Positions 42,782 to 56,725 of a stretch of 64,000 nt of DNA are shown here, in pieces; position 1 is the first letter of the stretch; the number at the start of each line of letters is the position of its first letter. The notes beneath the pieces were generated by a model. The model worked only from the letters and a program-made list of their open reading frames with translations, ran no database searches and had not been told where the DNA came from. This DNA is from a bacterium (GTDB lineage: Bacteria; Patescibacteriota; Minisyncoccia; Phycocordibacterales; UBA2100): contig JAUSGQ010000015.1 of NCBI GenBank assembly GCA_030674455.1, forward strand, positions 5,574-69,573. Reading direction: 5' to 3'. Made by a program: the position numbers and the translations under genes.

Positions 42782-42884
42782 ACCAATATACAAATGTATT
42801 CCAATCTACAAATAACTACAAATGTAAAGCAATGTAATATTTGTAGCCATTCGTAGTATTCGTATCATTTGCAGATTGGGACAT
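42782..42884. repeat. MITE-like element R8 in the divergent trpF/trpC promoter region
   Basis: TACCAATATACAAATGTATTCCAATCTACAAATAACTACAAATG...ATTTGCAGATTGGGACAT. Confidence 0.75.
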
Positions 42885-42912
42885 GGTACTTAGAAGACTC
42901 TTAAAATCATAG

Positions 42913-43710: not shown

Positions 43711-44933
43711 ATAAAGAAATTAAATACGGCGGTGCATACGTTCCTGAAATGTTATGGGATACGTTGAGGAAGCTCACCGAAGAATTTGAGCGCGCAAAAA
43801 AAGACGAAGCGTTTCAAAGCGAATTCCAAGACCTTCTTCGCAATTTCTCCGGCCGTCCGACGCCGCTCATTTTCGCCGCGCGTGCGACAGCCGACCTCGG
43901 CGGACTGACCGGCCAGGGCGCAAAAGTCTATCTCAAAAATGAGGGCGCAAATCACACGGGCGCGCACAAAATAACGCACTGCCTCGGGCAAGGGCTTCTT
44001 GCAAAACGCCTCGGGAAATCGATGCTCATTGCCGAAACTGGCGCAGGCCAACATGGCGTTGCCACCGCCACTGCGGCCGCCAAATTAGGGCTTGAATGCG
44101 TCGTTTTTATGGGCAGCCATGACATCAAGCGGCAACGCCCCAACGTGTTCCTTATGGAGCGCTTGGGCGCAAAAGTCGTACCCGTGGAATACGGAAGCAA
44201 AACGCTCAAAGATGCCGTGAATGAGGCGCTCAAATTCTGGATGGAACATTTAGACGAAGCGCACTACTGTATCGGCTCGGTCTTGGGGCCGGCGCCCTAC
44301 CCCGAGATGAACCGATACTTCCAGTCTGTCATCGGGCGGGAGATTCGCGCGGAGCTTTCAGAACGAGAAAATAAACTTCCAGACGCAATCGTCGCATGCG
44401 TCGGCGGAGGCTCAAATGCAATGGGAAGTTTTTATGATTTCATTCCCGAAAAGTCGGTGCGTCTTATCGGCGTCGAAGCCGGAGGAGTCGGAAAGAAAAT
44501 GGGAGAACATGCGTCGCGCAAAATTGCCGGAGAGCTCGGCATTTTCCAGGGTTACAAATCTCTTTTCTTGCAAACGGATGAGGGGCAAATCGCGCCCACA
44601 CATTCCATCTCTGCCGGTCTGGATTACCCGGGGGTCGGCCCCGAGCTTGCAGAGCTTTACACCAGTGGCCGTGTCGAGCTGACATATGCCACTGATGCGG
44701 AAGCGGTTTCTGCCGTGGATTATTTCGCCAAGCTTGAAGGCGTTATTTCCGCGCTTGAGAGCGCGCACGCGCTCGCGGAAGTGCGCAAAATCGCACCCAA
44801 AATGCCAAAGAATTCCATAGTGGTCGCAACTCTCTCCGGCCGCGGCGACAAAGACCTATTCAACTTCGCCCGCGCGTTCAAAGATGAAAGCTTCCGCGAA
44901 TTTTTGAAGGACGAGTACAATCGGTATGAGTAA
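43707..44933 (+). CDS. trpB: Tryptophan synthase beta chain
   Basis: FSGRPTPL, GAKVYLKNEGANHTGAHKI, GGGSNAMG. Confidence 0.9.
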   Translation: MNKEIKYGGAYVPEMLWDTLRKLTEEFERAKKDEAFQSEFQDLLRNFSGRPTPLIFAARATADLGGLTGQGAKVYLKNEGANHTGAHKITHCLGQGLLAKRLGKSMLIAETGAGQHGVATATAAAKLGLECVVFMGSHDIKRQRPNVFLMERLGAKVVPVEYGSKTLKDAVNEALKFWMEHLDEAHYCIGSVLGPAPYPEMNRYFQSVIGREIRAELSERENKLPDAIVACVGGGSNAMGSFYDFIPEKSVRLIGVEAGGVGKKMGEHASRKIAGELGIFQGYKSLFLQTDEGQIAPTHSISAGLDYPGVGPELAELYTSGRVELTYATDAEAVSAVDYFAKLEGVISALESAHALAEVRKIAPKMPKNSIVVATLSGRGDKDLFNFARAFKDESFREFLKDEYNRYE

Positions 44934-44953
44934 TTACTCTGCGTCGCATCAAG

Positions 44954-45796
44954 GTGACTCCTTGCGTGCAAGGTGTCTCCTTGATGCATTTCACCACCAT
45001 GAATAACCTTGGAACACTACTTTCGGAATCTAGAGGCAAAAAACCTCTCTTCATGGCGCATATGATTGCCGGATACCCCACAATTGAGGATTCGGAAAAA
45101 GTGGCGGAAGCTCTTGTAAAAGGCGGAGCGGATATTATTGAACTGCAAATTCCTTTTTCCGACCCCATGGCCGATGGTCCGGCAATCGCGGTTGCGAGCG
45201 AAGAAGCAATAAAGGCAGGCGCGACGGTTGCAAAATCTCTTTCCCTTCTGAAAAAGGTGGCGGCTCTTGGAAAGCCGGTTGCAGTGATGACATACGTAAA
45301 TATTCCTTTCAGATACGGAATTCCCAAATTCGTAAAATCTATTGCGGATGCGGGCGCAAGCGCCCTAATAGTCCCGGACTGCCCGTTCGATACTCAAGAA
45401 GGTCAGACCTTCTTCGACAGTTGCAAAGAATGTGGCGTGTATTTTGTTCCCGTCGTTTCGCCCGGTGTGCCAAAGGAACGGCTGGAACAACTAGCATCCG
45501 CCGGAGGCGGATCCTCCTCTGGAGGAAAAGATTCAAGAGGATTCGTCTATTGCACCTCGCGCCAAGGAATCACGGGAGCAAACAGCAAATTCGCGAAAGA
45601 ACTGTTTGATTTCGTGAAAGAATTGAAACAAATTTTCAAGCTCCCCATAGCCGTCGGCTTCGGCGTTAAATCAAAGGAAGATGTCGCCGAGCTGGCACAA
45701 GTAGCCGATATAGTCATCGCCGGCAGTGTTTTTGTGAATGCAATTAAGAATTCCGGCATTGGACATGTTGAACCTCTGGTGCGAACGCTGATGTAA
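44954..45796 (+). CDS. trpA: Tryptophan synthase alpha chain
   Basis: ...MIAGYPT..., ...IIELQIPFSDPMADGP.... Contains an inserted AGGGSSSGG linker from the GGATCC palindrome (45499-45527). Start uncertain (44954, 44978 or 44993). Confidence 0.85.
   Translation: MTPCVQGVSLMHFTTMNNLGTLLSESRGKKPLFMAHMIAGYPTIEDSEKVAEALVKGGADIIELQIPFSDPMADGPAIAVASEEAIKAGATVAKSLSLLKKVAALGKPVAVMTYVNIPFRYGIPKFVKSIADAGASALIVPDCPFDTQEGQTFFDSCKECGVYFVPVVSPGVPKERLEQLASAGGGSSSGGKDSRGFVYCTSRQGITGANSKFAKELFDFVKELKQIFKLPIAVGFGVKSKEDVAELAQVADIVIAGSVFVNAIKNSGIGHVEPLVRTLM
45499..45527. repeat. GGATCC-centred palindromic element TCCGCCGGAGGCGGATCCTCCTCTGGAGGA, in-frame within trpA
   Basis: Shares an identical 18 nt half with the ilvA and aroC copies. 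Confidence 0.7.
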
Positions 45797-45872
45797 CGGA
45801 ACACCCAATATAGAATGAACTAGCATCATATTTGTCGAAATTTGTACCCCATTTTTATTTTCCCGTAAGTGA

Positions 45873-46259
45873 TTAGGATTGTCCAACATTATCAAACCCT
45901 TGTAAGGGCTCATTATGCTCCCAATCATCTGTAAAACGTGTTTTTATTAGATCCCCCCATTTAGATACTTTTACTAACAATTCCATTGCATCTCGTACAG
46001 ATTCCGAGGTTGTCGTTCCAGCATGCAGCGAATCCGCATGCGCAAATCCCACAGCTCGAGGGAAGTTAGGGTGCGTGTCTAGATATTTCGCGAAGTTAGC
46101 TGCATATCTTGCAACTTCTCTTTTATGAGCGTCCATACAATTATCCAAATATTCGTGCCAAATTTGCTGATTTTTAACCTCGAAAGATGGCAGAGCCGCG
46201 CGCCAATTTTTTAGAACTTCCGTGCCCTGACGGTTGAGATGCTTATCCATTTTGGGCAC
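45873..46259 (-). CDS. Hypothetical protein
   Basis: 128 aa, overlaps aroC by 17 nt, co-directional with aroC and aroAK. No family recognised. Confidence 0.4.
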
Positions 46260-47355
46260 GATTGCGCAAAAAGTGATCCATGATGACGAGTGCTGACATC
46301 GCGTCTACTATCGGAACTGCGCGCGGAAGAACACACGGGTCGTGGCGGCCGGAGGCCTCAAGCTTCGTCGCTTCGCCTCCTATTTTCACCGTTTCTTGTT
46401 CCTTGCGTATCGTTGAAACCGGCTTGAAAACAACGCGGAAGTGAATTGTTTCTCCGTTCGAAATCCCGCCTATGGTGCCGCCGGCGTTGTTCGTTTTTGT
46501 GTGTATGTTGCCGTTTTTATCGGTGTAAAACGGGTCGTTGTGTTCGCTTCCGCGCATGCCGACGCTTCGAAAGCCGAGACCGATGTCGAATCCCTTAACC
46601 GCGTTGATTGAGAGCATGGCACGCCCTAGGTCTGAATTGAGTTTGTCGAACACAGGCTCGCCCAGACCGGCGGGTACGTTTCGGATGACACCCTGAATGA
46701 TGCCACCGATAGAATCGCCGTCTTTTCGCACCTCGTCAACAAGCTCGATCATCTTCTCGGCAACTTTTTGGTCGGGACAGCGGATGATATTTGATTCAAT
46801 GTCTTCCGCCTTCACCGCATTGAAATCCACTTCGGCCTTGATATCGCCCACCTGGGTCACGTAGCTCAATATTTCGACGCCGGAATGTTTTCCGCCGGAG
46901 GCGGATCCGCCTATGGCGGACAGATATTTCTGCGCGATAGCGCCAGCGGCAACGCGCGCGAGAGTTTCCCGCGCCGAAGCGCGGCCGGACCCCCTCCAAT
47001 CACGAGTCCCGTATTTCGCTTCGTAAGTGTAATCGGCATGCGATGGGCGATATAAATCTTTGAGAGCCAGATAATCCTCCGGCTTCGCGTCTTCGTTGAG
47101 TACCATCATGAGAATCGGCGTACCCGTCGTCTTCCCCTCAAAGTAACCAGAAAGAATGTGAATTTTGTCGGACTCTTTTCTCGGAGTCGTTATTTTACTT
47201 TGCCCCGGTCGCCGTCTATCAAGCGCCACCTGGATTTCCTCTTCCGTGATTTCAATACCCGGCGGGCATCCGTCTACCACAACGCCCACAGCCCCGCCGT
47301 GCGACTCGCCGAATGTCGTTATGCGAAAAAGTTGTCCGAATGAATTTCCTGCCAT
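46243..47355 (-). CDS. aroC: Chorismate synthase
   Basis: [33 protein letters not shown]... is the canonical AroC N-terminus. Contains an inserted IGGSASGG linker from the GGATCC palindrome (46892-46920). Confidence 0.9.
46892..46920. repeat. GGATCC-centred palindromic element TCCGCCGGAGGCGGATCCGCCTATGGCGGA, in-frame within aroC
   Basis: Shares an identical 18 nt half with the ilvA and trpA copies. Confidence 0.7.
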
Positions 47356-47363
47356 GTTAGATT

Positions 47364-47500
47364 TTGTTACGAGTAATTACGAGTTAGAAAATCTTACACC
47401 CAGCACCTTTCACGCTCATTCTACCATTTAATCGGCGAGTGACATCTGTTGTTTGTGGTTTACAAATGTAACTAATTCCACATTAAAGGTGCTGGGTTAT
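47364..47500 (-). promoter_or_regulatory. Hairpin (ACCCAGCACCTT / AAGGTGCTGGGT, with a roughly 70 nt loop) plus conserved leader ...TAACAAAATCTAACATG upstream of aroC (copy 2)
   Basis: Same element and orientation relative to the gene start as 1114-1191 and 52618-52694. Confidence 0.5.
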
Positions 47501-47543
47501 AGAAAATGTAGTCACTTCGTTTCTTATTTTCTTATAATAACCC

Positions 47544-49391
47544 TTATTTTTCTACAATACCGCGTCTTTCTAATCGCTCGAGCACTTCCTCTGTTTTCTG
47601 CTCCAGCGTCAGATTGGTGTCCATAACAATCTCATCTGCTGCAGCCTCATAGAGCTTTTTGCGCTCGGCGAGAACCGTCTCAATCTCTTCGCGCGTGCTT
47701 GCTGCATTCGTAAGAGCCGGCCTTCCGGGGTCGTGCTCAATTCGCTCCGCCAGGATATCCGCCGGCGCATTCAGGAAGATGAGAATGCCGTTCTCCTTCA
47801 AAACAGCGACATTTTCCGGACGCTCTATCACGCCTCCGCCGGTGGAAATGATAGTGTCTTTCTGCTTGCCAACTTCCGATACAATCTCTGATTCCCGGTC
47901 CCTGAAATATTCCCAACCGCGCTTCTGCACTGTCTCCGCTATCTTCATCCCCTCGCGCTCTTCTATTAGGTCGTCTATATCTATGAGCTCTTTATTGAGT
48001 TTCTGCGCAAGCAAGCGCCCCACCGTGGTCTTGCCGCCGCCGCGCATACCGATAAGAATGATGTTCGGATGCTCGTAGCTGATGGAGAATGGGGCGCCGG
48101 CGAGCGCAAGCGATTTCCAAAAACGCGGGAAGGTCTTCGTGACGACATCAGGATCTACGATCTCCATGCCGGGCAATTTTGCGGCGGCAACCGCGAACGC
48201 CATCGCCATGCGGTGGTCGCCGTACGTGTCTATGCGGGCTGGCTTTGGTTTGCCGCCGTACACGGTGAGCGTGTCCTGCGTCGATTCGGCACGTATACCC
48301 ATCTTCTTGAGCTCTGTTTCGATGGCGGCGACGCGTTCGGTTTCTTTGACGCGGAGCGACTGCACGCCTCTTATGGTCGTTGTTCCATCCGCAAACGCAG
48401 CGAGCACAGAAAGAGTCTGCGCCTGATCGGGACAGTCTTGCATGTCAACGGAAACTGCTTTCACGCCTTTGCCCGTAATGGTTATTGAGTGCTCTCCATA
48501 GGTGACTTCGTTCCCCATATCCTCAAGGATTTTCAAGAAGCGAATGTCGGCTTGATAGGTTTTCGGATTGAGATTGGTGAGCGTCAGGGTTGAACGTGTC
48601 AAAGCTGCAATGGCGAAGAAGTAGGCGGCGCTCGAAAAATCACCCTCTACCGTATGTTCAGTAGCGCGATACGCCTGTCCGGCAGGCACGAAGTAGTGCT
48701 TGTAACCATCGTTCTCTACCGATACGCCGAACGAGCGCATGGCGTCGATTGTCATATCGATATACGGCTTGGATATCTGATTACCCACTATGTCAATGCG
48801 AAGCTCGCCGATCAAGGGCGCGATCATAAGAATGGCCGAAAGAAATTGGCTCGAGACCGTGCCTTTTATCTTCACAACTCCGGACTCAAGATGCGAAGAA
48901 AGAACCTTGACCGGCGGATAGCCGTGCTTGTCTACATATTCTATGCGCGCGCCGAGCTGCTCGAGGGATTCCACGAGATGTGCGATCGGACGCTCGTTGA
49001 GGCGGCCGCGGCCGCGTATGATTTTGATACCCGGAACAATCGCGGAAAGCGCGAGAACAAAACGGATAGCTGTTCCAGAGAGATTGGCGTTGAGATGGTA
49101 CTCGCCTTCTCGTATCGCGCTTATGTCGGAAGTAACTATTAGAGAACCGGGCTGCCGCGCGATGTCTTCCGGAGCAAGCATGTCATCCTTAAAAGCGAAG
49201 TGTATCCCCAATTCCCGCAAGCACGCTATCATCGCGTGCGTATCGTCTGAAACGAGCGGGTTGTTGATGGTGACTGTGCCTTTTGTGAGAGCGGCGAGAA
49301 GAAGTGCCCTGTTGGTATAGCTTTTCGAACCCGGAATGGCGATGGTCGCAGTCACCGGCTTATTGAACGGGGTTATCCGGACGGTTTTCAT
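47544..49391 (-). CDS. aroA: Bifunctional 3-phosphoshikimate 1-carboxyvinyltransferase / shikimate kinase (AroA-AroK fusion)
   Basis: N-terminal EPSP synthase (about 430 aa), then a C-terminal shikimate kinase (GMRGGGKTT Walker A, ...DIDDLIEEREGM...). Confidence 0.85.
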   Translation of the reverse strand: MKTVRITPFNKPVTATIAIPGSKSYTNRALLLAALTKGTVTINNPLVSDDTHAMIACLRELGIHFAFKDDMLAPEDIARQPGSLIVTSDISAIREGEYHLNANLSGTAIRFVLALSAIVPGIKIIRGRGRLNERPIAHLVESLEQLGARIEYVDKHGYPPVKVLSSHLESGVVKIKGTVSSQFLSAILMIAPLIGELRIDIVGNQISKPYIDMTIDAMRSFGVSVENDGYKHYFVPAGQAYRATEHTVEGDFSSAAYFFAIAALTRSTLTLTNLNPKTYQADIRFLKILEDMGNEVTYGEHSITITGKGVKAVSVDMQDCPDQAQTLSVLAAFADGTTTIRGVQSLRVKETERVAAIETELKKMGIRAESTQDTLTVYGGKPKPARIDTYGDHRMAMAFAVAAAKLPGMEIVDPDVVTKTFPRFWKSLALAGAPFSISYEHPNIILIGMRGGGKTTVGRLLAQKLNKELIDIDDLIEEREGMKIAETVQKRGWEYFRDRESEIVSEVGKQKDTIISTGGGVIERPENVAVLKENGILIFLNAPADILAERIEHDPGRPALTNAASTREEIETVLAERKKLYEAAADEIVMDTNLTLEQKTEEVLERLERRGIVEK

Positions 49392-49619
49392 CCCGTTAGA
49401 AGCCCGCCTGCCATCGCCTGAAGCCGCGATAGTAAGATGGCTTGGTTAGTTAATAAATACATAGCATTCATTTCTATCATTGATTCCCCCGCTCTGGCTT
49501 TGGCGGGCAGGTAGGAAGCTCACGCTTCCGACTCGGAAGTTATTGCTTGTAAGCATACGACCAATGTTAAACATATAGAGAATGTACCACATGTGAACTT
49601 CCGCGACTTCTAACGGGAT

Positions 49620-50630
49620 TCATACGGAATTGCTCTCTTTTATGAGGCGCTCAAGCGCTTCTCGGGCAGTGCCGGAATCCAATGAACGCTCCGCAAGTTC
49701 GATTCCCTCTTTCGGCGTCTTTGCTATACCAGCGACGTAAAGGCCGAGCGCGGCGTTCAGAACCACAATGTCGCGCTTCGGCCCTTTCTCACCGTTCAAA
49801 ATTGCGCGAATCATCGCAGCATTTTCTTCAGGTCCGCCGCTTTGAAGCTCCAAAATGGATGCCTTTTTAAATCCAAGCTTTGCCGGATCAATCGCGTACT
49901 TTTTTACATGCCGTTCGGTAATCTCAAAAACGTGCGTCGGGGCGCTGATGCTGACCTCATCCATGCCGTCCTCGCTCGTCACTATGAGCAAATGTTTGTA
50001 TTCGAGCTCGCGCGCCACCTCGGCCAACTTTTCCGCAAGTGCAAGATTCGGCACGCCGACAAGCTGCCGCTTGGTGCTCGCCGGATTTGAGAACGGCCCT
50101 AAAACATTGAAAATCGTGCGAATTTTGAGTTCCTTGCGCACCAAAACAACTTGCTTCATTGATGGATGGTAGAGGGGCGCGAACAAAAAGACCATGCCTA
50201 CATTTCTAAATACGTCTTCCGCCTGTGTAGGCGTAAGTACTATTCGCACGCCGAGAGCTTCAAGTACATCGGCACTCCCGCATTTACTGCTCGCCGCGCG
50301 ATTCCCGTGCTTCGCAATTTTCGCACCCGCACCGCAGGCAACGAATGCGGCGGCCGTTGAAATATTAAATGTGCCGGTCCCGTCGCCACCCGTGCCGACG
50401 ACATCAATCGCATCCTTTGCGCGCACCGTAAGCATTTTCTCGCGCATGCCCTCTATCAATCCTTTCACTTCGGCAACGCTTTCCCCTTTCATGCGGAATG
50501 CAGTCAAGATTGCTCCCGTTTGCACGGGGGAAATCACTCCTTCCATCACATCAAGAAGAAACTGCCTCGCATCGGCAGATGTGAGATCCTTCTTTTCAAC
50601 CAGTGTGTTCAAGATTTCTGTAGCATTCAT
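49620..50630 (-). CDS. trpD: Anthranilate phosphoribosyltransferase
   Basis: GTGGDGTGTFNISTAAAFVACGAG...KHGNRAASSKCGSADVLEALG. Confidence 0.9.
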   Translation of the reverse strand: MNATEILNTLVEKKDLTSADARQFLLDVMEGVISPVQTGAILTAFRMKGESVAEVKGLIEGMREKMLTVRAKDAIDVVGTGGDGTGTFNISTAAAFVACGAGAKIAKHGNRAASSKCGSADVLEALGVRIVLTPTQAEDVFRNVGMVFLFAPLYHPSMKQVVLVRKELKIRTIFNVLGPFSNPASTKRQLVGVPNLALAEKLAEVARELEYKHLLIVTSEDGMDEVSISAPTHVFEITERHVKKYAIDPAKLGFKKASILELQSGGPEENAAMIRAILNGEKGPKRDIVVLNAALGLYVAGIAKTPKEGIELAERSLDSGTAREALERLIKESNSV

Positions 50631-50647
50631 ACGTAGAGTCTATCCTA

Positions 50648-51244
50648 TTATCGCGCAATGAAATTCGCGAGCAATTGTTTTCCGCCTTCCGTCGCAAACG
50701 ACTCAGGATGGAATTGGATTCCTTCTATCGGATATTCCAAATGCCGCAAGCCCATGATCTCTCCAGTATCCAGCGATGTCGCGGTTACCGCAAGACATGA
50801 GGGCAACGTGGCTCTTTCAGCGATAAGCGAATGATAACGCATCACCTCCAATTTTTGTGGCAAACCCTTGAACACGCCCTTGCCGTCATGTTCGATAATA
50901 CTGGTTTTTCCATGCATCGGTTTTTGTGCGCGCACAACACCTCCGCCAAAGCAGTATGCTATTCCCTGCATTCCAAGGCACACGCCGAGAACCGGAGTGG
51001 TCTTCCCTATTTTTGTAATGACATCCGCGCATACGCCGAAATATTTTGGGTCGCGCGGGTCTCCGGGGCCGGGAGAAATAATTATTTTGTCGTACTTCCG
51101 TTTTTCTATTTCCGCGAGCGTTATTTCGTCGTTCCGCACGACATCCAATGTGAACTTCTCTCCGTTCTCGGAAAGTATCTCTCCCACGTACTGGTAGAGA
51201 TTGAATGTGAACGAATCGTAATTATCTATTATTAGGACTTTCAT
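50648..51244 (-). CDS. trpG: Anthranilate synthase component II (glutamine amidotransferase)
   Basis: MKVLIIDNYDSFTFNLYQY..., a catalytic Cys in GVCLGMQ, and the HPES motif. Start taken at MKVLII; 4 nt overlap with trpE. Confidence 0.85.
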   Translation of the reverse strand: MKVLIIDNYDSFTFNLYQYVGEILSENGEKFTLDVVRNDEITLAEIEKRKYDKIIISPGPGDPRDPKYFGVCADVITKIGKTTPVLGVCLGMQGIAYCFGGGVVRAQKPMHGKTSIIEHDGKGVFKGLPQKLEVMRYHSLIAERATLPSCLAVTATSLDTGEIMGLRHLEYPIEGIQFHPESFATEGGKQLLANFIAR

Positions 51245-52608
51245 ACTTTTTTTGCGGAAACGCCAAGCACCTCTTTCATCGCGGCGGATTTGTTTTGAAT
51301 CTCCTCGTACTCTTTTTTCGGAACGGAGTCGTATACGATGCCTCCGCATGTTTGAGTATACGCATCTTCGCCGGTAATGAAAACCGAGCGCAGGGCGAGC
51401 GCGAATGTGCAGTCGCCGTTGAACCCAAAATGCCCAACTCCTCCGCCATACGGTCCGCGCGCCTCTTTTTCGTTAGCATCTATAATTTTTATGGTCTCTA
51501 TCTTCGGCGTCCCGCACACCGTTCCCATCGGAAATTGGCTCGCAAAACCGGAAAACATGTCTTCCTCGGGGCGAATCGTGCCAACAACCTCGCTCGAAAT
51601 GTGCTGTACATGGCTGAACTTCTTAACGGTCATAAGGTCGCGGATTTTCACCGTGCCGAATTTGGCCACTTTTCCGAGGTCATTTCTGTGCAGGTCCACG
51701 AGCATGTTGTGCTCGGCGCGCTCTTTTTCGTCGTTCACAAGTTCGCGCGCGAGCTTCTGGTCTTCCTTCTCATCGGCGCCTCGACGGATCGTTCCCGCGA
51801 GCGGCCGCGTCGTCATTTCCCCATCGCGCAATGAGAACAATAATTCCGGACTCGCGCCGATAATTCTTTTTCCTTGGAATTTGAGGTAGTACATGAACGG
51901 CGACGGGTTTATTTCTCTCAATCGTTCATAGATTTTCACCGTATCGCCTTTAATCTTGTATTTCGTCTTGAATCCGACTTCGCACTGAAATGTTTTCCCT
52001 TCTCTGATTTTCTCCTTCACATCCTCCACGATTTTCGCGTGTTCAGTTTCCGAAAGTCCTTCGTCGACGCACTGCGCACTGAAAGGCTCCGCGCTGATTT
52101 CGGAAGCAATTATTTCCTTCAGTATCGCGCTTCTATCAGTTTCGTAATAAAAATATGTCAGTTCATCGGTCTGCTTGTCCATTATTAATCCGTCCGTATA
52201 GGCCCCAAAAAGGAACTGGTCGAACGTGTCGTGCACTTTGACGTGGAGAGAGGGTTCCATAAGATTAATCGCCTCATAGCTTAAGTATCCGACGAGCCCT
52301 CCGTCGTAATTTCTCCCGATAGTGCGCGCGGGCATGGTATCGCGCAGGGCGTAGTATGGATTCGCAACGGAATAATCTTTTCCATCAACGGTCAAAGTTT
52401 TTTCCCTGCCGCTAATCAGATGTGCAGGCTCAAAACCCAATATTGAGTAGCGGGCGAATTTTCCTTCGTCTCCCAATGATTCAAAAATAAAACAGGTATC
52501 AAATCGCCGTTCGATTTTCCTGAACAATTCGAAGAAGTCCACTCCGTCCGCAAGTTTGACGTATGTCGGTTTCTGCGAAATCTTGATTTTTGGAATTTCT
52601 TTTGTCAT
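51241..52608 (-). CDS. trpE: Anthranilate synthase component I (chorismate-binding)
   Basis: Chorismate-binding enzyme C-terminal motifs (..GAYTDGLIMD.., ..RGPYGGGVGHFGFNGD..). Assigned as TrpE rather than PabB from the trpG-trpD context. Confidence 0.8.
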   Translation of the reverse strand: MTKEIPKIKISQKPTYVKLADGVDFFELFRKIERRFDTCFIFESLGDEGKFARYSILGFEPAHLISGREKTLTVDGKDYSVANPYYALRDTMPARTIGRNYDGGLVGYLSYEAINLMEPSLHVKVHDTFDQFLFGAYTDGLIMDKQTDELTYFYYETDRSAILKEIIASEISAEPFSAQCVDEGLSETEHAKIVEDVKEKIREGKTFQCEVGFKTKYKIKGDTVKIYERLREINPSPFMYYLKFQGKRIIGASPELLFSLRDGEMTTRPLAGTIRRGADEKEDQKLARELVNDEKERAEHNMLVDLHRNDLGKVAKFGTVKIRDLMTVKKFSHVQHISSEVVGTIRPEEDMFSGFASQFPMGTVCGTPKIETIKIIDANEKEARGPYGGGVGHFGFNGDCTFALALRSVFITGEDAYTQTCGGIVYDSVPKKEYEEIQNKSAAMKEVLGVSAKKV

Positions 52609-52617
52609 GTTAGTTTT

Positions 52618-52694
52618 TCTTAACGAGTTTACGAGTTTAGAAACAGCTTACACCCAGCACCTTTGTTTCAGTAAGAAACGAAGGTGCTGGGTTA
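52618..52694 (-). promoter_or_regulatory. Hairpin ACCCAGCACCTT-TGTTTCAGTAAGAAACG-AAGGTGCTGGGT plus conserved leader ...TTAAGAAAAACTAACATG upstream of trpE (copy 3)
   Basis: See 1114-1191 and 47364-47500. Confidence 0.5.
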
Positions 52695-52727
52695 GGAATA
52701 TGTAATTCGCTTCGCTCATAACACTTC

Positions 52728-52781
52728 CTAAAAATAAAAACCGCCCTCACCGCACAAGTATACCTTGTGCTGTAAGGGCGG
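52728..52781 (-). terminator. Strong rho-independent terminator on the minus strand (CCGCCCTTACAGCACAAGG-TATAC-TTGTGCGGTGAGGGCGG followed by TTTTTATTTTT)
   Basis: Read from the sequence. It ends the candidate ncRNA. Confidence 0.7.
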
Positions 52782-52993
52782 ATTTCCGCGGTACCACCTT
52801 ATTTCGGATAGTTTACAGTTGACAGTGAACAGTCTACAGAAACATCCATCTCATCCCGATGCGGGATTGCTCTGTTACGGGAGAACCCGGACCCGCACAC
52901 GCCTTTCGATAAACTCAGGACAAGCACGAGTCGCTGTTGTCATTTCCGAGCCCAATCTCTTGCTTTTACAAGAGACCCGGACAGCGTTAACTA
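52741..52993 (-). ncRNA. Candidate structured ncRNA (about 250 nt) between a sigma70-like promoter (TCGACA-16 bp-TATAAT at 53027-53000) and a strong intrinsic terminator; class unassigned
   Basis: No credible ORF. Promoter and terminator were read from the sequence. The internal hairpins UCUCUUG-UAAAAG-CAAGAGA and CCCG-CAU-CGGG and the segment GCGUGUGCGGGUCCGGG...AACAGAGCAAUCCCGC loosely resemble SRP/RNase P conserved regions but do not match either fully. Confidence 0.4.
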
Positions 52994-53008
52994 TTGGTAA
53001 TTATACCA

Positions 53009-53893
53009 CTAATCTTCTACCTGTCGAGACGCAGATATTTTCATCACCAGGAAAAACGAAGGCAACCGGCATAATCCGTATCGGCTAAATACATACCTCT
53101 CACTGCGTATTATTCTTTGTAATGAAATACTCTTATTCTGTACGCTGGCAATTTGCATTAAAGCCCGGAAAACAAGTTCTATATCTTCGCACGCGTCTTT
53201 GCCCTTTGTAAGAAAATTGAGATGTTTCCTATCAGCTGCAGGAACTCCAAAAGGATATGCGGGAAATTTCCCTTCCAAAATAATTTCTCCGTTTGGTTTG
53301 GTGATACGAACTGCCTCTTCGAATGTCTTTTCCTGATCTGTATCGAAGTCTAGGAAATACGACAGAAATGCCAGATCAAAATGATTTGTCGGGAAGCCTA
53401 GGTGTTCTATCCTTCCCGTATATCCGTGGAAACCATTCGCGCGAATTATCGCGGTACTTGCCGGACTTATGTCTGTACCATGTAATTGACGGCTGTTAAC
53501 GCCAAACTGGTGGTGTAAAAAACGGAGGAGTTCGTTGCTTCCCGCTCCAATATCGATAATTTGTAAATCATTGAGTTTAGGCGCCGCAATGCCGGTTATT
53601 TTATTAAATTGCTCCGGGAAAAGGAGTGCATTCAAATACATATAGTTTGGTCGGTTGCCCTGGTATTCGATATCGTAGATAGAGGCAATAACCTGTTCCG
53701 AACCGGAACTCATCTTATAGGCATGTTTCGCGAGCCTTTGCACTGCATAAAGCCCCGCCATGCGCTTTAATGCCTCGAATCTAAATGCCCAAAGCGGGCG
53801 GCAAAAAAGTCCTGATAGACCGGACAGGGTTTTGATGTGCACGTATTTCGCGCCAAACGAATTTGCGAAGCGAAGTAGTTTGCCGTCTTGCAT
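53009..53893 (-). CDS. Class I SAM-dependent methyltransferase
   Basis: Motif I IIDIGAGSNELL and post-I acidic D (HGTDIS). No DPPY/NPPY, so probably not a DNA methyltransferase. Confidence 0.6.
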   Translation of the reverse strand: MQDGKLLRFANSFGAKYVHIKTLSGLSGLFCRPLWAFRFEALKRMAGLYAVQRLAKHAYKMSSGSEQVIASIYDIEYQGNRPNYMYLNALLFPEQFNKITGIAAPKLNDLQIIDIGAGSNELLRFLHHQFGVNSRQLHGTDISPASTAIIRANGFHGYTGRIEHLGFPTNHFDLAFLSYFLDFDTDQEKTFEEAVRITKPNGEIILEGKFPAYPFGVPAADRKHLNFLTKGKDACEDIELVFRALMQIASVQNKSISLQRIIRSERYVFSRYGLCRLPSFFLVMKISASRQVED

Positions 53894-53905
53894 ACATTTC
53901 AGCTA

Positions 53906-56725
53906 TCACTGAAACGGCTGCATCATGGGGTCGGCAGGTTTCTCCTCGACATATCGCGCGCGAATATCGGCCTCTATCTCTTCCCTGTCTTTTCCGTATG
54001 TCAGATATGAAAGTTCTTTGAGCGCTGGCACTTTGCTGGAATCCGAAACCTCCGGCTTCACCGTCTGTATAGTGAACGGCCGCGCCGGTACCCCGTTTAC
54101 AAGGAGTGACATCACAGCGTTGTAGTTAGGGAGATTTTCCAAATCGGGCGCGGTGAAACCCGGTTCAAATTGCTTTGCAAGGAATTCGGCATCGGTTGTG
54201 CCTACGCGGAATGCCGCTTTCGTACCGACGTTGCCGATGACGGCATCGCGTATTTTCTCGTCTAACTGCGCGATGAACTGGTGCGCGATGATGAGCGAGA
54301 GTTTGTATTTTCGCGCCTCGGAAAGAATAGTTCCGATAGAGGGTGTCGCAAAGTTCTGGAATTCGTCGATGTAGAGATAGAACACCGGAAGATTGCCGCC
54401 TACCGAATCAATGCGTGAGAATGCGGCCTGGAGGAATTTGGAAACCAGAACAAGCCCCAGGAGCGAAGTGTTCCTGTCGCCTAAACGCCCCTTTGAGAGG
54501 TTCGCGAGGAAGATTTTCTTGTCGTCCATGATTTTTCGGAAGTCGAACGCGGATTTTTCCTGCGCGACGATAGGCCGCATGATGTCGTTGGCGAGAAAGA
54601 CGTCGAATTTGCTGGAAATGTACGGTGTCACGTTCTCGAGCGAAGCATCTCCGCCAGCCGCTTCGGCGATTTTCCGCCAGAATTGGATGATGACCGGATT
54701 TTTGCACTTCGAGATCTTGAGGTCGCGGAATGTGGGGTCGGCAAATACGCGCGGAACTTCGAGGAACGTGGAACCCGATTCCGGGTCTTCGACGACGAGT
54801 TGAACGGCGTTGCGATAGTATTGCTCGAACATCGGGCCGAAGGCTTCAGGAACATCCGCATAGAGCTTACGGAAAATCCCATACACTTCATCCACCACGA
54901 ATGTTTTCATTTCCGGCTTTGAGCGGTCGTATTCCAGCATGTTGAGGCCCATCGGGCGTGCTGTGTAGGCAGGGTCAAAGTAGATGACATCGTTCATTCG
55001 CTCCGGAGGAATTGCCGCGAGAATGTCTTCGATGTCGTTTCCGTGCGGGTCTATGAACGCGACCCCTTCCCCGTTCTTGATGTCCTGAATAATCATGTTC
55101 TTGATAAGCGTCGTTTTTCCTGTACCCGTCTGCCCGATGACGTAGCAATGACGCATGCGGTCGGCTGGTGCGAATCGAACCGGAGTTTCCGTAGCACCGT
55201 ATCGATTGATACCAAGAACAACACCTTCCGAAGCCATTGCGACGGGCGCCGGCATCTGCTTGGCAAACGCCCGCTTGAGTTCGCGCGAGGTCGTAACGCG
55301 TTCGGCGGTAAAGTGGAACATAGTCGTCACCTCCGCAAGACTAAGCGGCATCGTAATTGACCGGTCGAAAGCGCGATATATGTAATCGCGCAAAAAACTC
55401 TGCAGGCTCCAACTGCTTACTTCTTTAAAGCCCATGTGATTCCCCTTTGGGTCGTCGTATTGGTTGAACGGCGCCATCAAATTCTGGAGAATATCCTGCG
55501 CGCGTTTTTTATCAGGCGCCGAAGCCACAAGACGGATAAGCACGGGGGCAATGCGACTCTTAATTTTGCGTCCGATGACTTCCGTTGCGACTTGATCTGT
55601 GGCGCGCCTATATTCCTTGTCTTTTTCTTCTTTGTAAAGTTCCGGCATGAAAATTGCCCTTCCAAGTTCAGAGGCAAAATCTCCAATAACGGTTTCCGGA
55701 ACTTGGAGCGCCCGAGAAATATGCCAACCCTTTTCTATCACGCGGATCATTTTCTTATAGTGTCTGTTGTATCTGTCGCCTTCATTGCCTACGACAAACT
55801 GGATAGCAGCGCCTTCCCCATGCTTAGCGAGCTTTGCAAACGCGGAAAGCAATACGTTCATAGGGTCGTGCTCGAACATCTCGGCAGTCTTCAGAGGAAA
55901 GGCGGGGTGGTCGGCAAGCTTCCCTATCGCGCCGGCGTTTTCCCCTTCATAATTAAAAATATTGTAGTCGCCGCGGCTCTCGGAAATACGCGCGTTCGGA
56001 AATACTGATGAAATTAAGCGCTCGGCGAGGACTTGCTTGGCGCGCGGAACACCGAGATAGAGGGAAGCTTCCTCGGACCCGTTCGGAACCGCGATTTCAA
56101 GAGAGAACCCTTCGTCCCGAGATATGAGCGACGTGAGACCCGCATAGAGTTGTTCGGAGGATGAAAGAATTTGCTCCAATTTCATCTGCCCCATCTGCTT
56201 CTCATCTTTTTCCCCATGCGCCTGCGGTTGTATCTCAAAAAGAACCATGTGAAGCGCGCGCTTCACTTTTTCCGGCGGCGCAAATCCTTTTTCAGGAAGC
56301 CCTTCGGCAATGTAGCGCACCAGCATCCTGTGCAAATCGTCTTCCAAATGCGGATTTTTCATGCGAGCCGCCACCGAAAGTGCGTTGCGTATACCATGTT
56401 CGGCGACAATCTTGAGAAGCCCGTCCATTTGCGCATCGTGCTCTTCCGGTTCAAGGTTCAGCGCGTGCCGGATCGTGTCATGCTCCGGCATGACTGCCTC
56501 CTCGTGGAGAACTGCGTGCGCGGGCGTCGCCGCGTACGCGGCGATTTCGCGTTTTGCAATTCGGTCCTTCTCGATGCGATTTTCTGCGGTTTCTAATTCC
56601 CCCGTCTTTTCTTTTACCTGCTCGCGTAAATAAGCAAGCTCCTCTTGCGGAGATTTGAATTTTTCCGCCGTCTTAGTGATACGCTCTGCAATAAAGCGCG
56701 GTTCGTGTGTAGCCAATGCCACCAT
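53906..56725 (-). CDS. Large P-loop ATPase with a VirD4/TraG/TraD (T4SS coupling protein)-like C-terminal half and a unique roughly 480 aa N-terminal domain; no TM segments
   Basis: Walker A VIGQTGTGKTT, FIDPHGND (as in DPKGE of VirD4), Walker B-like YLYIDEFQNF, followed by a TraM-recognition-like region. Confidence 0.55.
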   Translation of the reverse strand: MVALATHEPRFIAERITKTAEKFKSPQEELAYLREQVKEKTGELETAENRIEKDRIAKREIAAYAATPAHAVLHEEAVMPEHDTIRHALNLEPEEHDAQMDGLLKIVAEHGIRNALSVAARMKNPHLEDDLHRMLVRYIAEGLPEKGFAPPEKVKRALHMVLFEIQPQAHGEKDEKQMGQMKLEQILSSSEQLYAGLTSLISRDEGFSLEIAVPNGSEEASLYLGVPRAKQVLAERLISSVFPNARISESRGDYNIFNYEGENAGAIGKLADHPAFPLKTAEMFEHDPMNVLLSAFAKLAKHGEGAAIQFVVGNEGDRYNRHYKKMIRVIEKGWHISRALQVPETVIGDFASELGRAIFMPELYKEEKDKEYRRATDQVATEVIGRKIKSRIAPVLIRLVASAPDKKRAQDILQNLMAPFNQYDDPKGNHMGFKEVSSWSLQSFLRDYIYRAFDRSITMPLSLAEVTTMFHFTAERVTTSRELKRAFAKQMPAPVAMASEGVVLGINRYGATETPVRFAPADRMRHCYVIGQTGTGKTTLIKNMIIQDIKNGEGVAFIDPHGNDIEDILAAIPPERMNDVIYFDPAYTARPMGLNMLEYDRSKPEMKTFVVDEVYGIFRKLYADVPEAFGPMFEQYYRNAVQLVVEDPESGSTFLEVPRVFADPTFRDLKISKCKNPVIIQFWRKIAEAAGGDASLENVTPYISSKFDVFLANDIMRPIVAQEKSAFDFRKIMDDKKIFLANLSKGRLGDRNTSLLGLVLVSKFLQAAFSRIDSVGGNLPVFYLYIDEFQNFATPSIGTILSEARKYKLSLIIAHQFIAQLDEKIRDAVIGNVGTKAAFRVGTTDAEFLAKQFEPGFTAPDLENLPNYNAVMSLLVNGVPARPFTIQTVKPEVSDSSKVPALKELSYLTYGKDREEIEADIRARYVEEKPADPMMQPFQ

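What the first reader, a model, noticed from the sequence alone, without database searches (positions are those of the whole stretch)
52728..53027. Candidate ncRNA gene of about 250 nt, bounded by a promoter and a terminator, downstream of the ATPase/methyltransferase pair and upstream of trpE
A 300 bp stretch without ORFs carries a near-consensus promoter on the minus strand: TCGACA at 53027-53022, a 16 bp spacer, and TATAAT at 53005-53000. It ends in a textbook intrinsic terminator at 52781-52728, a GGGCGG-capped 17 bp stem followed by TTTTTATTTTT. The transcript contains several stable hairpins, and short stretches (GCGUGUGCGGGUCCGGG and AACAGAGCAAUCCCGC) are reminiscent of SRP/RNase P conserved regions without fitting either consensus. 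It could be a reduced or divergent housekeeping RNA such as 6S, SRP or RNase P, or a novel sRNA.
Basis: seen in the sequence. Interest (0 to 1): 0.6.

Follow-up and report, generated by a model that had tools for sequence, protein, structure and literature searches.

The report
Tryptophan T-box leader of trp operon
The "unknown 250-nt RNA gene" is a T-box riboswitch, an mRNA leader that reads uncharged tRNA-Trp to switch on the tryptophan operon, and it is an unusually stripped-down version found in a Candidate Phyla Radiation bacterium.

Summary
A sigma-70-type promoter (53027-53000, minus strand) and a strong intrinsic terminator (52781-52730) bound a structured RNA of about 265 nt.

The interpretation does not hold. 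This is not a free-standing RNA such as 6S, SRP or RNase P. It is the cis-acting T-box leader of trpE-trpG-trpD-aroA/aroK-aroC.

- **Sensor and switch:** it has the T-box sequence AAGG-UGGUACC-GCG, an antiterminator that shares a strand with the terminator, a UGG (Trp) specifier bulge in Stem I, Stem II, a Stem IIA/B pseudoknot and a Stem III hairpin.
- **Conservation:** 28 leaders upstream of trpE orthologues in Kaiserbacteria-like and Levy/Daviesbacteria-like genomes and metagenomes share this plan. UGG is invariant in all 28.
- **Covariation:** 95.8% of cells pair in the 5' domain, against 42-58% when the partners are slid. The antiterminator pairs in 100% of cells.
- **Database status:** Rfam's T-box model matches only below threshold (31.7 bits; gathering score 93).

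Two features are unusual. Stem I is short and has no tRNA-elbow platform, which the literature treats as essential for terminator-type T-boxes and dispensable only in actinobacterial translational ones. I also found no paper in the held library that links T-boxes with CPR bacteria.

Verdict: a known mechanism in a new structural and phylogenetic variant, of moderate interest.

The parts
53000..53027 (-). Sigma-70-type promoter: -35 TCGACA at 53027-53022, 16-nt spacer, TG-extended -10 TATAAT at 53005-53000. The TAG stop codon of the upstream methyltransferase gene (53011-53009) lies inside the spacer. The transcription start is inferred at about 52993, give or take 3 nt.
   Evidence: One search gives 11 of 12 matches. 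One search shows a promoter at the same distance (9-10 nt) from the leader start in 16 of 16 clade-K relatives.
52932..52986 (-). Stem I. It consists of basal helix P0 (CGCUGU 52986-52981 with ACAGCG 52937-52932), helix P1 (CCGGG 52980-52976 with CUCGG 52950-52946), a distal hairpin (52975-52956; 8 pairs, loop UAAAAG) and a one-sided loop AAAUGACA (52945-52938). In relatives a K-turn or a junction hairpin occupies the position of that loop.
   Evidence: P1 pairs in 100% of cells, and 3 of its 5 pairs change on both sides. The distal hairpin pairs in 97% of cells. P0 was read directly from the sequences (CGCU/AGCG, CGCU/GGUG, GCC/GGC).
52951..52955 (-). Specifier bulge UUGGG. The Trp codon UGG is at 52954-52952, followed by the purine G52951. 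It sits on the 3' side of Stem I, directly before the 3' strand of P1.
   Evidence: UGG is invariant in all 28 T-box-type leaders: UGG+G in the 16 parsed clade-K leaders (A1 columns 17-20 invariant), UGG+A in clade L, read from the raw sequences. The downstream genes are trpE, trpG and trpD.
52890..52932 (-). Stem II: GACUCGUGC pairs with GUGCGGGUC (9 pairs). A 25-nt apical extension (52923-52899) carries a UGA...GAA internal loop.
   Evidence: 98% of cells pair and 3 pairs change on both sides. One search gives a fold z-score of -3.1. The same extension occurs in L001, L022-L024, L042 and L044.
52870..52889 (-). Stem IIA/B pseudoknot. Stem IIA is CGGG-UUCU-CCCG (52889-52878), followed by the F-box-like CCGUAA. 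Strand IIB, AGAG (52873-52870), is complementary to the IIA loop UUCU.
   Evidence: The Rfam alignments place this region at high posterior probability. The three IIA pairs tested are invariant. IIB pairs in 82% of cells in one register, with one pair changing on both sides (UUCU/AGAA versus UCCU/AGGA).
52853..52867 (-). Hairpin AUCCCG-CAU-CGGGAU, homologous to Stem III of the relatives (consensus ...GGGAUGA...).
   Evidence: One search gives -6.6 kcal/mol. Sequence homology is visible.
52806..52847 (-). Window-specific hairpin inserted in the linker between Stem III and helix A1. Rfam aligns it as Stem III.
   Evidence: L001 and L024 carry a different insertion at the same site.
52774..52800 (-). 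T-box sequence and antiterminator. Helix A1 is AAGG (52800-52797) with CCUU (52777-52774). The 7-nt bulge UGGUACC is at 52796-52790, and its UGGU pairs with the 3'-NCCA end of the tRNA. Helix A2 is GCG(G) (52789-52786) with (C)CGC (52781-52778).
   Evidence: 100% of cells pair in 23 sequences, against 29-60% when slid, and A2 covaries (GCG/CGC, GCC/GGC, ACG/CGU). On its own the antiterminator is weak, at -7.1 kcal/mol and no better than shuffles.
52730..52781 (-). Intrinsic terminator: stem 52781-52741 and U-tract 52740-52730. Its 5' strand reuses the 3' strands of A2 and A1, so terminator and antiterminator cannot form together.
   Evidence: One search gives -33.9 kcal/mol and z = -8.7. A T-run of four or more follows the terminator region in all 28 leaders. 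Folding gives a complete stem that includes those strands in 25 of them; in L006, L027 and L012 the excerpt was cut at an internal T-run.
51241..52608 (-). trpE, the first regulated gene. It is followed by trpG (51349-50648), trpD (50630-49620), an aroA-aroK fusion (49391-47544) and aroC (47355-46243).
   Evidence: Pfam matches.

Best explanation
The region is a Trp-specific T-box riboswitch that controls the trpE-trpG-trpD-aroA/aroK-aroC operon by transcription attenuation.

**How it works.**
1. Transcription starts about 7 nt after the -10 box.
2. The nascent leader folds into Stem I, which displays the Trp codon UGG in a 3'-side bulge. Stem II, the IIA/B pseudoknot and Stem III follow.
3. 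tRNA-Trp (anticodon CCA) pairs with the UGG.
4. If the tRNA is uncharged, its free 3' NCCA end pairs with UGGU in the 7-nt T-box bulge. This stabilises the otherwise weak antiterminator (A1 and A2), so RNA polymerase reads through into trpE.
5. If the tRNA is charged or absent, the much stronger terminator forms from the same strand. Transcription then stops in the U-tract at 52740-52730 and releases an RNA of about 265 nt.

**Shown here:** every sequence and secondary-structure element, their conservation and covariation, the invariance of the codon, and the gene context.

**Inferred from the established T-box mechanism:** tRNA binding, sensing of the charge state, and termination in vivo.

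**How this element differs from textbook terminator-type T-boxes.** Stem I is short. The window also has a plain helix with a one-sided 8-nt loop where its relatives have a K-turn or a three-way junction.
For: - **Rfam.** RF00230 (T-box) is the only significant hit (E=3e-5). The same model hits 11 of 18 related leaders at 26-52 bits. In the best relative it aligns the K-turn, Stem II, Stem IIA, the F-box and the T-box with high posterior probability.
- **Switch architecture.** A1, the UGGNACC bulge, A2, an overlapping terminator region and a T-run parse in all 28 leaders upstream of CPR trpE, and 25 of the 28 fold into a complete terminator stem. In the window the antiterminator folds at -7 kcal/mol and the terminator at -34.
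- **Specifier.** UGG is invariant, followed by a purine, directly before the 3' strand of P1. The operon makes tryptophan.
- **Covariation, 5' domain.** 95.8% of cells pair, against 42-58% when slid. Nine pairs change on both sides, and 0 of 500 shuffles reach the observed score.
- **Covariation, antiterminator.** 100% of cells pair, against 29-60% when slid.
- **Variable UGGN position.** It is only C or U in all 28 leaders. This fits a G73 discriminator. TBDB reports U at this position in 46% of known Trp T-boxes (PMC7778990).
- **Promoter.** It is positionally conserved.
- **No competing leader peptide.** No small ORF with Trp codons lies upstream of the terminator.
Against: - The Rfam score is far below the curated threshold (31.7 against 93), and no relative passes it.
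[quoted passage not shown] The review PMC7583486 calls it essential for transcriptional T-boxes.
- The window has no recognisable K-turn at the base of Stem I.
- The Stem II S-turn is not evident.
- In isolation, Stem I prefers a fold that pairs the UGG with the 5' strand of P1.
- No tRNA-Trp gene was available to test the pairing with the discriminator base.
- There are no expression data.
- My module alignments were built with hand-written patterns and with variable insertions cut out. That leans the counts towards the model, although those patterns did not require pairing within the helices counted.
Confidence: 0.9

Rival explanations
1. It is a free-standing small RNA gene, either a divergent 6S, SRP, RNase P or tmRNA or a novel trans-acting sRNA, whose terminator simply ends the gene.
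For: A promoter and a terminator bound a structured RNA of about 265 nt. When terminated, such an RNA would indeed be released and could in principle have a second role.
Against: - None of those families appears even at E<=10 in a search of this region alone.
- The element always lies directly upstream of trpE in the relatives.
- It carries all the T-box switch features and a Trp codon.
- The terminator overlaps an alternative helix, which is the signature of an attenuator.
Confidence: 0.02
2. It is a T-box that acts mainly on translation, like the actinobacterial ileS class with short Stem I. In this reading the 'terminator' hairpin sequesters a ribosome-binding site rather than stopping RNA polymerase.
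For: - The short Stem I without an elbow platform, and the insertions in the A2 loop and near Stem III, are traits the review ascribes to translational T-boxes.
- In several relatives the trpE ATG follows the hairpin within 5-20 nt.
- The 3' strand of the hairpin contains GAGGG or AAGGG, which resembles a Shine-Dalgarno sequence.
Against: - In the window the trpE ATG (52608) lies about 120 nt beyond the hairpin, so the hairpin cannot occlude its ribosome-binding site.
- All 28 leaders have a T-run of four or more after the terminator region. A sequestrator hairpin does not need one.
- The stem is G+C-rich and 17 pairs long, typical of an intrinsic terminator.
Confidence: 0.05
3. It is a decaying, non-functional remnant of a T-box. 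The window's copy has lost the K-turn or junction hairpin and gained two insertions, so the operon would be governed by the terminator alone or by something else.
For: - The window lacks the K-turn bulge or junction hairpin that all 15 other clade-K leaders have.
- It has an extra 42-nt hairpin between Stem III and A1.
- Its Rfam score is among the lowest in the family.
Against: - Every core element is intact: specifier, P1, Stem II, IIA/B, T-box bulge, A1, A2 and terminator.
- The window's own substitutions are compensatory. For example, a Stem II pair is G-C where the relatives have C-G, and a P1 pair is G-U or G-C.
- Without antitermination, a -34 kcal/mol terminator in front of an intact seven-enzyme investment would silence the operon.
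Confidence: 0.04
4. It is a classical trp leader-peptide (trpL-type) attenuator, in which ribosome stalling at Trp codons selects between hairpins.
For: Some relatives really do use this. L005, L009, L040 and L046 have a short ORF with tandem TGG TGG followed by a terminator upstream of trpE.
Against: In the window no small ORF upstream of the terminator contains a Trp codon. The UGG triplets in the leader upstream of the terminator are the specifier, the T-box bulge and one at 52848 that lies in no ORF with a start codon.
Confidence: 0.01

Closest known systems
Transcriptional (class I) T-box leaders, Rfam RF00230. Examples are the Trp T-boxes upstream of trpE in Bacillus, Clostridia and Dehalococcoides (Chloroflexi).
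   Same: - The T-box sequence, the 7-nt UGGNACC bulge, and helices A1 and A2.
- A mutually exclusive intrinsic terminator with a U-tract.
- A specifier codon on the 3' side of Stem I, followed by a purine.
- Stem II, the IIA/B pseudoknot with F-box-like CCGUAA, and Stem III.
- A trpE operon as target. PMC2494555 reports trpE T-boxes in Firmicutes and Dehalococcoides.
   Different: - Stem I above the specifier is a plain 8-pair hairpin, with no AG bulge or distal-loop double-T-loop platform.
- The specifier 'loop' is reduced to a 4-5 nt bulge with no S-turn.
- The window has no K-turn.
- The score is far below Rfam's gathering threshold.
- The host is a CPR/Patescibacteria bacterium, which is absent from the phylum lists I could read.
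Translational (class II) T-boxes of Actinobacteria with intermediate or 'ultrashort' Stem I (Mycobacterium and Nocardia ileS; PDB 6UFG, 6UFM as cited in PMC7583486).
   Same: - Stem I is naturally truncated and lacks the elbow-binding platform. In clade-L relatives the specifier sits in the terminal loop, as in 'ultrashort' Stem I.
- A Stem II plus IIA/B pseudoknot domain is present.
- Extra insertions occur in the A2 loop and near Stem III.
   Different: - The expression platform is a G+C-rich terminator plus U-tract, not a Shine-Dalgarno sequestrator.
- In the window the start codon is about 120 nt away.
- The specifier is Trp, not Ile, and the target is a biosynthetic operon, not an aminoacyl-tRNA synthetase.
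- Stem II of most relatives lacks the S-turn columns.
glyQS-type minimal T-boxes (Bacillus and Geobacillus).
   Same: They show that T-boxes can lose whole domains. glyQS lacks Stem II and IIA/B, and the relatives L011 and L041 likewise have no Stem II-III region.
   Different: glyQS keeps the long Stem I with the elbow platform. The CPR leaders lack it. The window keeps Stem II and IIA/B.

Membership tests
T-box leader (RF00230) | Conserved T-box sequence forming a 7-nt bulge UGGNACC between helices A1 and A2 (the antiterminator). | tested here: met
   AAGG-UGGUACC-GCG...CGC-CCUU lies at 52800-52774. The same layout is present in all 28 leaders. 100% of cells pair and A2 covaries.
T-box leader (RF00230) | A terminator (or sequestrator) that is mutually exclusive with the antiterminator. 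| tested here: met
   The 5' strand of the terminator, 52781-52774, is the 3' strand of A2 and A1. The terminator folds at -33.9 kcal/mol against -7.1 for the antiterminator. The shared strand and a following T-run are present in all 28 leaders, and 25 of them fold into a complete terminator stem.
T-box leader (RF00230) | Specifier codon in a Stem I loop, followed by a purine, matching the amino acid of the regulated genes. | tested here: met
   UGG at 52954-52952 plus G52951 lies directly 5' of the 3' strand of P1. It is invariant in all 28 leaders (for clade K; clade L read). The downstream genes are trpE, trpG and trpD.
T-box leader (RF00230) | The variable N of UGGN pairs with the discriminator base of the cognate tRNA. 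| not testable with these tools
   No tRNA-Trp gene lies in the window or in the 32 loci scanned. As indirect evidence, N is only C or U, both compatible with G73. TBDB reports the same for Trp T-boxes.
T-box leader (RF00230) | K-turn (GA motif) at the base of Stem I. | tested here: not met
   The window has CGCUGU-CCGGG on the 5' strand with no bulge, and an 8-nt loop AAAUGACA on the 3' strand. The relatives L007, L028, L033, L042, L044, L048 and most clade-L leaders do have the consensus form, for example GCC-UUU-GA-UCCGG ... CCGG-U-GA-GGC.
T-box leader (RF00230) | Long Stem I with AG bulge and distal loop forming the interdigitated double-T-loop platform that stacks on the tRNA elbow. | tested here: not met
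   The distal part is a 20-nt hairpin of 8 continuous pairs (52975-52956). In relatives it varies from 14 to 98 nt with no conserved loop, and in clade L it is absent. The Rfam alignment deletes 76-84 Stem I model positions.
T-box leader (RF00230) | Stem II with an S-turn, followed by the Stem IIA/B pseudoknot (F-box). | tested here: inconclusive
   The Stem II helix and Stem IIA are strongly supported, and CCGUAA matches the F-box. IIB complementarity is 82% in one register. The S-turn columns are deleted in the best relative. The window's apical extension has a UGA/GAA loop whose nature I could not settle.
T-box leader (RF00230) | Score at or above Rfam's gathering threshold. | tested here: not met
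   The window scores 31.7 bits against a threshold of 93. The relatives score 26-52 bits. No hit is reported at gathering level.
T-box leader (RF00230) | Binding of uncharged cognate tRNA causes readthrough. | not testable with these tools
   This needs in vitro transcription or reporter assays.
Translational class II T-box (Actinobacteria ileS) | The alternative hairpin sequesters the Shine-Dalgarno sequence of the regulated gene, and there is no U-tract terminator. | tested here: not met
   The trpE ATG at 52608 is about 120 nt beyond the hairpin. A T-run of four or more follows the terminator region in all 28 leaders.
6S RNA / bacterial SRP RNA / RNase P RNA / tmRNA | A match to the family covariance model. 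| tested here: not met
   None is listed even at E<=10 in a dedicated 701-nt search. There is nothing at gathering level in the whole window. ARAGORN finds no tmRNA.
trpL-type leader-peptide attenuator | A short leader ORF with (tandem) Trp codons upstream of the terminator. | tested here: not met
   No small ORF upstream of the terminator contains a Trp codon.

The most novel reading that the evidence does not exclude
CPR/Patescibacteria may carry their own lineage of miniaturised, terminator-type T-boxes that recognise tRNA-Trp without the Stem I elbow platform.

- Most members also lack a recognisable Stem II S-turn.
- In L011 and L041 the sensor, from the K-turn to helix A1, is only about 75 nt and has no Stem II, IIA/B or III at all.

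If these elements work co-transcriptionally, they contradict the current view that the elbow contact is required for kinetic competence in transcriptional T-boxes. They would also be the smallest natural T-box scaffolds. Their presence in CPR would extend the T-box phylogenetic range. From my own knowledge, it would also be consistent with CPR grouping with Chloroflexi and other Terrabacteria, where trpE T-boxes are known.
Probability: 0.45. Interest if true: 0.65.

Novelty: new variant of a known kind. Interest (0 to 1): 0.45.

Why it matters
**Annotation.** The mystery RNA gets a function, and the result shows how a Kaiserbacteria-like CPR genome regulates a complete tryptophan and late-shikimate gene set. 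That gene set is itself unusual in a lineage that, from my own knowledge, mostly lacks amino-acid biosynthesis.

**Riboswitch biology.** The family offers natural test cases for two open points raised in the 2020 T-box review (PMC7583486):
- whether a terminator-type T-box can work without the tRNA-elbow platform;
- whether a T-box can work without a K-turn, as the window's copy would have to.

**Databases.** About 28 T-boxes go undetected at Rfam's current threshold. CPR regulatory RNAs are therefore probably under-annotated.

Tried and rejected
- **Rfam at gathering threshold.** The whole window gave only a tRNA-Thr. Seventeen related loci gave nothing.
- **A second T-box in the window.** The only other GGTGGNACC (37936, + strand) lies inside a long coding stretch and has no leader features.
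- **A leader upstream of trpC-trpB-trpA.** The intergenic region 42794-42912 has no T-box.
- **tRNA-Trp for the discriminator test.** None is present in the window or in the 32 loci scanned.
- **Literature on T-boxes in CPR bacteria.** Three searches (T-box with Patescibacteria, candidate phyla radiation or Parcubacteria) returned no papers. Vitreschak et al. 2008 is not held in the library.
- **Parsing scripts.** Two first attempts at parsing the 3' module failed for technical reasons and were replaced.
- **Protein-coding readings.** The overlapping mechanical ORFs have no Pfam hits.
- **Repeated or mobile element.** The conserved stretch after the terminator occurs only once in the window.
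- **Not examined.** TRAP-type regulation ((G/U)AG repeats) was not tested.
Full report
**1. What is there**

- The promoter is exactly as described: TCGACA, a 16-nt spacer and TG-n-TATAAT at 53027-53000, with 11 of 12 matches.
- The terminator is a 17-pair G+C-rich stem at 52781-52741, followed by UUUUUAUUUUU. It folds at -33.9 kcal/mol with z = -8.7.
- The whole leader folds better than all 200 shuffles (z = -5.4).
- The mechanical ORFs that overlap it have no family match.

**2. First clue to identity**

At gathering thresholds Rfam reports nothing here. A permissive search of the 701-nt region alone gives one significant match, the T-box leader RF00230 (31.7 bits, E=3e-5, gathering score 93). 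No 6S, SRP, RNase P or tmRNA model is listed even at E<=10.

In that alignment the 3' part, AAAUAAGGUGGUACCGCGG..CCGCCCUU, matches with high posterior probability. Most of the model's Stem I is deleted. I therefore tested membership feature by feature.

**3. Relatives**

Close relatives of the window's TrpE were fetched from species-representative genomes and from metagenomes.

- All the bacterial relatives with 59% identity or more come from Candidate Phyla Radiation/Patescibacteria MAGs (Kaiserbacteria, Levybacteria, Daviesbacteria, Nomurabacteria and others) or from unlabelled or oddly labelled bins.
- The nearest, at 90% identity, is a Kaiserbacteria MAG. The window is therefore most likely from a Kaiserbacteria-like organism.
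- Twenty-eight leaders upstream of these trpE genes share the window's plan.
- They fall into two groups: 'clade K' (the window plus 16 others) and 'clade L' (the Levy/Davies-like group).
- Rfam's T-box model hits 11 of the 18 loci searched, at 26-52 bits. None reaches the threshold.

**4. Anatomy of the window's leader** (coordinates; all on the minus strand)

- **Stem I:**
  - Helix P0 is CGCUGU (52986-52981) with ACAGCG (52937-52932).
  - Helix P1 is CCGGG (52980-52976) with CUCGG (52950-52946).
  - The distal hairpin is at 52975-52956.
  - The bulge UUGGG is at 52955-52951. It holds the Trp codon UGG (52954-52952) plus a purine, directly before the 3' strand of P1.
  - A one-sided loop AAAUGACA is at 52945-52938.
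- **Stem II:** 52932-52890, with 9 pairs and a 25-nt apical extension.
- **Stem IIA:** CGGG-UUCU-CCCG (52889-52878), followed by UAAC and then AGAG (52873-52870), which can pair with the IIA loop to form the IIA/B pseudoknot.
- **Stem III homologue:** 52867-52853.
- **A window-specific hairpin:** 52847-52806.
- **The T-box proper (antiterminator):**
  - A1 is AAGG (52800-52797).
  - The bulge is UGGUACC (52796-52790).
  - A2 is GCG(G) with (C)CGC.
  - The 3' strand of A1 is CCUU (52777-52774).
- **The terminator:** its 5' strand starts at 52781, so it reuses the 3' strands of A2 and A1.

On its own the antiterminator is weak, at -7.1 kcal/mol and no better than shuffles. The terminator is very strong. 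The default state is therefore OFF, and a stabilising ligand is needed. This is the logic of a T-box.

**5. Conservation and covariation**

- A single pattern decomposes all 16 clade-K leaders into the same modules.
- UGG is invariant in all 28 leaders. It is followed by G in clade K and by A in clade L (for clade K; clade L read).
- I built an ungapped 70-column core alignment with the variable insertions excised (A1). The proposed structure pairs in 95.8% of cells, against 42-58% when the 3' partners are slid by 1-3 columns. Nine pairs change on both sides, and 0 of 500 shuffles reach the observed covariation score.
- Per helix:
  - P1 pairs in 100% of cells, and 3 of its 5 pairs change on both sides.
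  - The base of the distal hairpin pairs in 97%.
  - Stem II pairs in 98%, with 3 pairs changing on both sides.
  - The three IIA pairs tested are invariant.
  - IIB pairs in 82% in one register.
- The antiterminator pairs in 100% of cells in 23 sequences, against 29-60% when slid. A2 switches between GCG/CGC, GCC/GGC and ACG/CGU.
- All 28 leaders have the terminator's shared strand and a T-run of four or more. Folding gives a complete stem that includes the 3' strands of A2 and A1 in 25 of them. In L006, L027 and L012 the excerpt was cut at an internal T-run.
- In all 16 clade-K loci a 9-11/12 promoter ends 9-10 nt before the conserved leader start UAAMKC.

Caveats:
- The core alignments were made with my own patterns and with insertions cut out.
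- The pseudoknot register shifts by one position between subgroups.
- Folded alone, Stem I prefers to pair UUGGGC with GUCCGG. That fold would hide the codon, but it cannot explain the covariation seen in the 3' strand of P1.

**6. Mechanism**

From the established T-box mechanism (reviewed in PMC7583486):
- The tRNA-Trp anticodon CCA pairs with UGG.
- The free 3' NCCA end of uncharged tRNA pairs with UGGU in the bulge and stacks on A1.
- The antiterminator then wins, and RNA polymerase reads into trpE-trpG-trpD-aroA/aroK-aroC.
- With charged tRNA the terminator forms, and an RNA of about 265 nt is released.

The variable bulge position is only C or U across the family. This is what a G73 discriminator allows. 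TBDB reports U at this position in 46% of known Trp T-boxes, where it pairs as a G.U wobble (PMC7778990). I could not check the tRNA itself.

**7. Rivals**

- **Leader-peptide attenuation is excluded for the window.** No small ORF upstream of the terminator has a Trp codon. Some relatives (L005, L009, L040, L046) do use a tandem-Trp leader peptide instead.
- **Purely translational action is unlikely.** The trpE ATG lies about 120 nt beyond the hairpin, and a T-run is conserved after the terminator region.
- **A decayed relic is possible but unlikely.** All core elements are intact, and the window's own substitutions are compensatory.

**8. Comparison with what is known**

It works like a class I, terminator-type Trp T-box. 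Such elements are known upstream of trpE in Firmicutes and in Dehalococcoides (PMC2494555). It fails three canonical features.

- **No Stem I distal double-T-loop platform.** The distal part is a plain 20-nt hairpin. It is variable in clade K and absent in clade L. The Rfam alignments delete 76-84 model positions.
- **No K-turn in the window.** Relatives have either a textbook K-turn or a three-way junction at that place.
- **No clear Stem II S-turn**.

In these respects it resembles the actinobacterial translational ileS T-boxes, including the extra insertions in the A2 loop and near Stem III that the review notes for that class. The review states that the platform is essential in transcriptional T-boxes and dispensable in translational ones, and it gives a kinetic rationale. 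A conserved family with a terminator and U-tract but no platform is therefore a real variant.

The phylum lists I could read name Firmicutes, Actinobacteria, Chloroflexi, Deinococcus-Thermus and a few Proteobacteria (2008; the TBDB preprint). Full-text searches combining T-box with Patescibacteria, candidate phyla radiation or Parcubacteria found nothing. This is absence of evidence in one library. It is not proof that the finding is new.

**9. Verdict**

The element is a Trp T-box transcription attenuator (confidence 0.9). The mechanism is known. The architecture (short Stem I on a terminator platform, and no K-turn in this copy) and the host lineage make it a new variant. Interest is moderate (0.45). 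It would rise if the CPR leaders prove to be functional miniature T-boxes.

Noticed in passing
window 52648-52719 (minus strand), including the hairpin at 52692-52652: A near-perfect 17-pair hairpin (one mismatch; -29.2 kcal/mol, z = -7.5) lies between the terminator and the trpE ATG. It sits inside a 23-codon mini-ORF (MSEANYIFLTQHLRFLLKQRCWV) that is preceded by AGGAAG. L002 has the same flanking sequence and an in-frame mini-ORF, but a different and still self-complementary hairpin. L003 and L022 have other hairpins just before their trpE start. In L001, L004 and L007 the ATG follows the terminator directly. The hairpin could be an mRNA stabiliser, a processing site or a translational element.
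   Followed up: partly
L005 about 2905-2990; L009 about 2795-2915; L040 about 395-470; L046 about 945-1040: Other CPR trpE orthologues have no T-box. Instead they have a short leader ORF with tandem TGG TGG followed by a terminator, as in trpL-type attenuation. They often also have a small TrpR/YerC-like helix-turn-helix ORF just upstream (also seen in L008, L013, L031, L035, L038 and L050). Orthologous operons within one radiation therefore use two different Trp-sensing attenuators.
   Followed up: partly
L011 2859-2986 and L041 861-988: These are extremely small T-box leaders. A K-turn, a 5-pair helix and a 10-nt loop with UUGGAA are followed after about 25 nt by the T-box and terminator. 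There is no Stem II, IIA/B or clear Stem III. The two copies differ by compensatory changes in the K-turn C-stem (UGC/GUA versus UGC/GCA). They may be the smallest natural T-boxes.
   Followed up: partly
L001/L024, L002, L022, L023, L034, L006/L027 (antiterminator loops): Structured insertions of 15-67 nt sit in the loop of helix A2, on top of the antiterminator. They recall the stem Sa of staphylococcal glyS T-boxes and the A2 insertions of translational T-boxes.
   Followed up: no
window 42131-52608: The window encodes a complete tryptophan pathway plus the late shikimate steps.
- Minus strand: trpE, trpG, trpD, an aroA-aroK fusion, aroC and an unassigned 128-aa ORF (46259-45873).
- Plus strand, convergent with these: trpC, trpB and trpA (42913-45796).
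- Minus strand, divergent from trpC: trpF (42793-42131).

This is unusual for a CPR genome. The nearest non-CPR TrpE relatives found, at 39-40% identity, are from Nitrososphaerales archaea (L018-L021).
   Followed up: partly
window 42794-42912: The AT-rich intergenic region between the divergent trpF and trpC-trpB-trpA has repeated TACAAAT/ATTTGTA motifs, including the palindrome ATACAAATGTAT, and no T-box. It may be a protein operator for the second half of the pathway.
   Followed up: no
window 53009-56725 (minus strand): Upstream of the leader lie a TraD/VirD4-like coupling-protein ATPase (939 aa) and a class I SAM-methyltransferase. The trp promoter overlaps the last codons and the stop codon of the methyltransferase gene. 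L003 has the same arrangement.
   Followed up: partly
window 52946-52989 (minus strand): Folded alone, Stem I prefers to pair the specifier UUGGGC with GUCCGG, which would mask the codon. Covariation supports the P1 helix that leaves UGG bulged. The alternative may be a competing closed state.
   Followed up: partly
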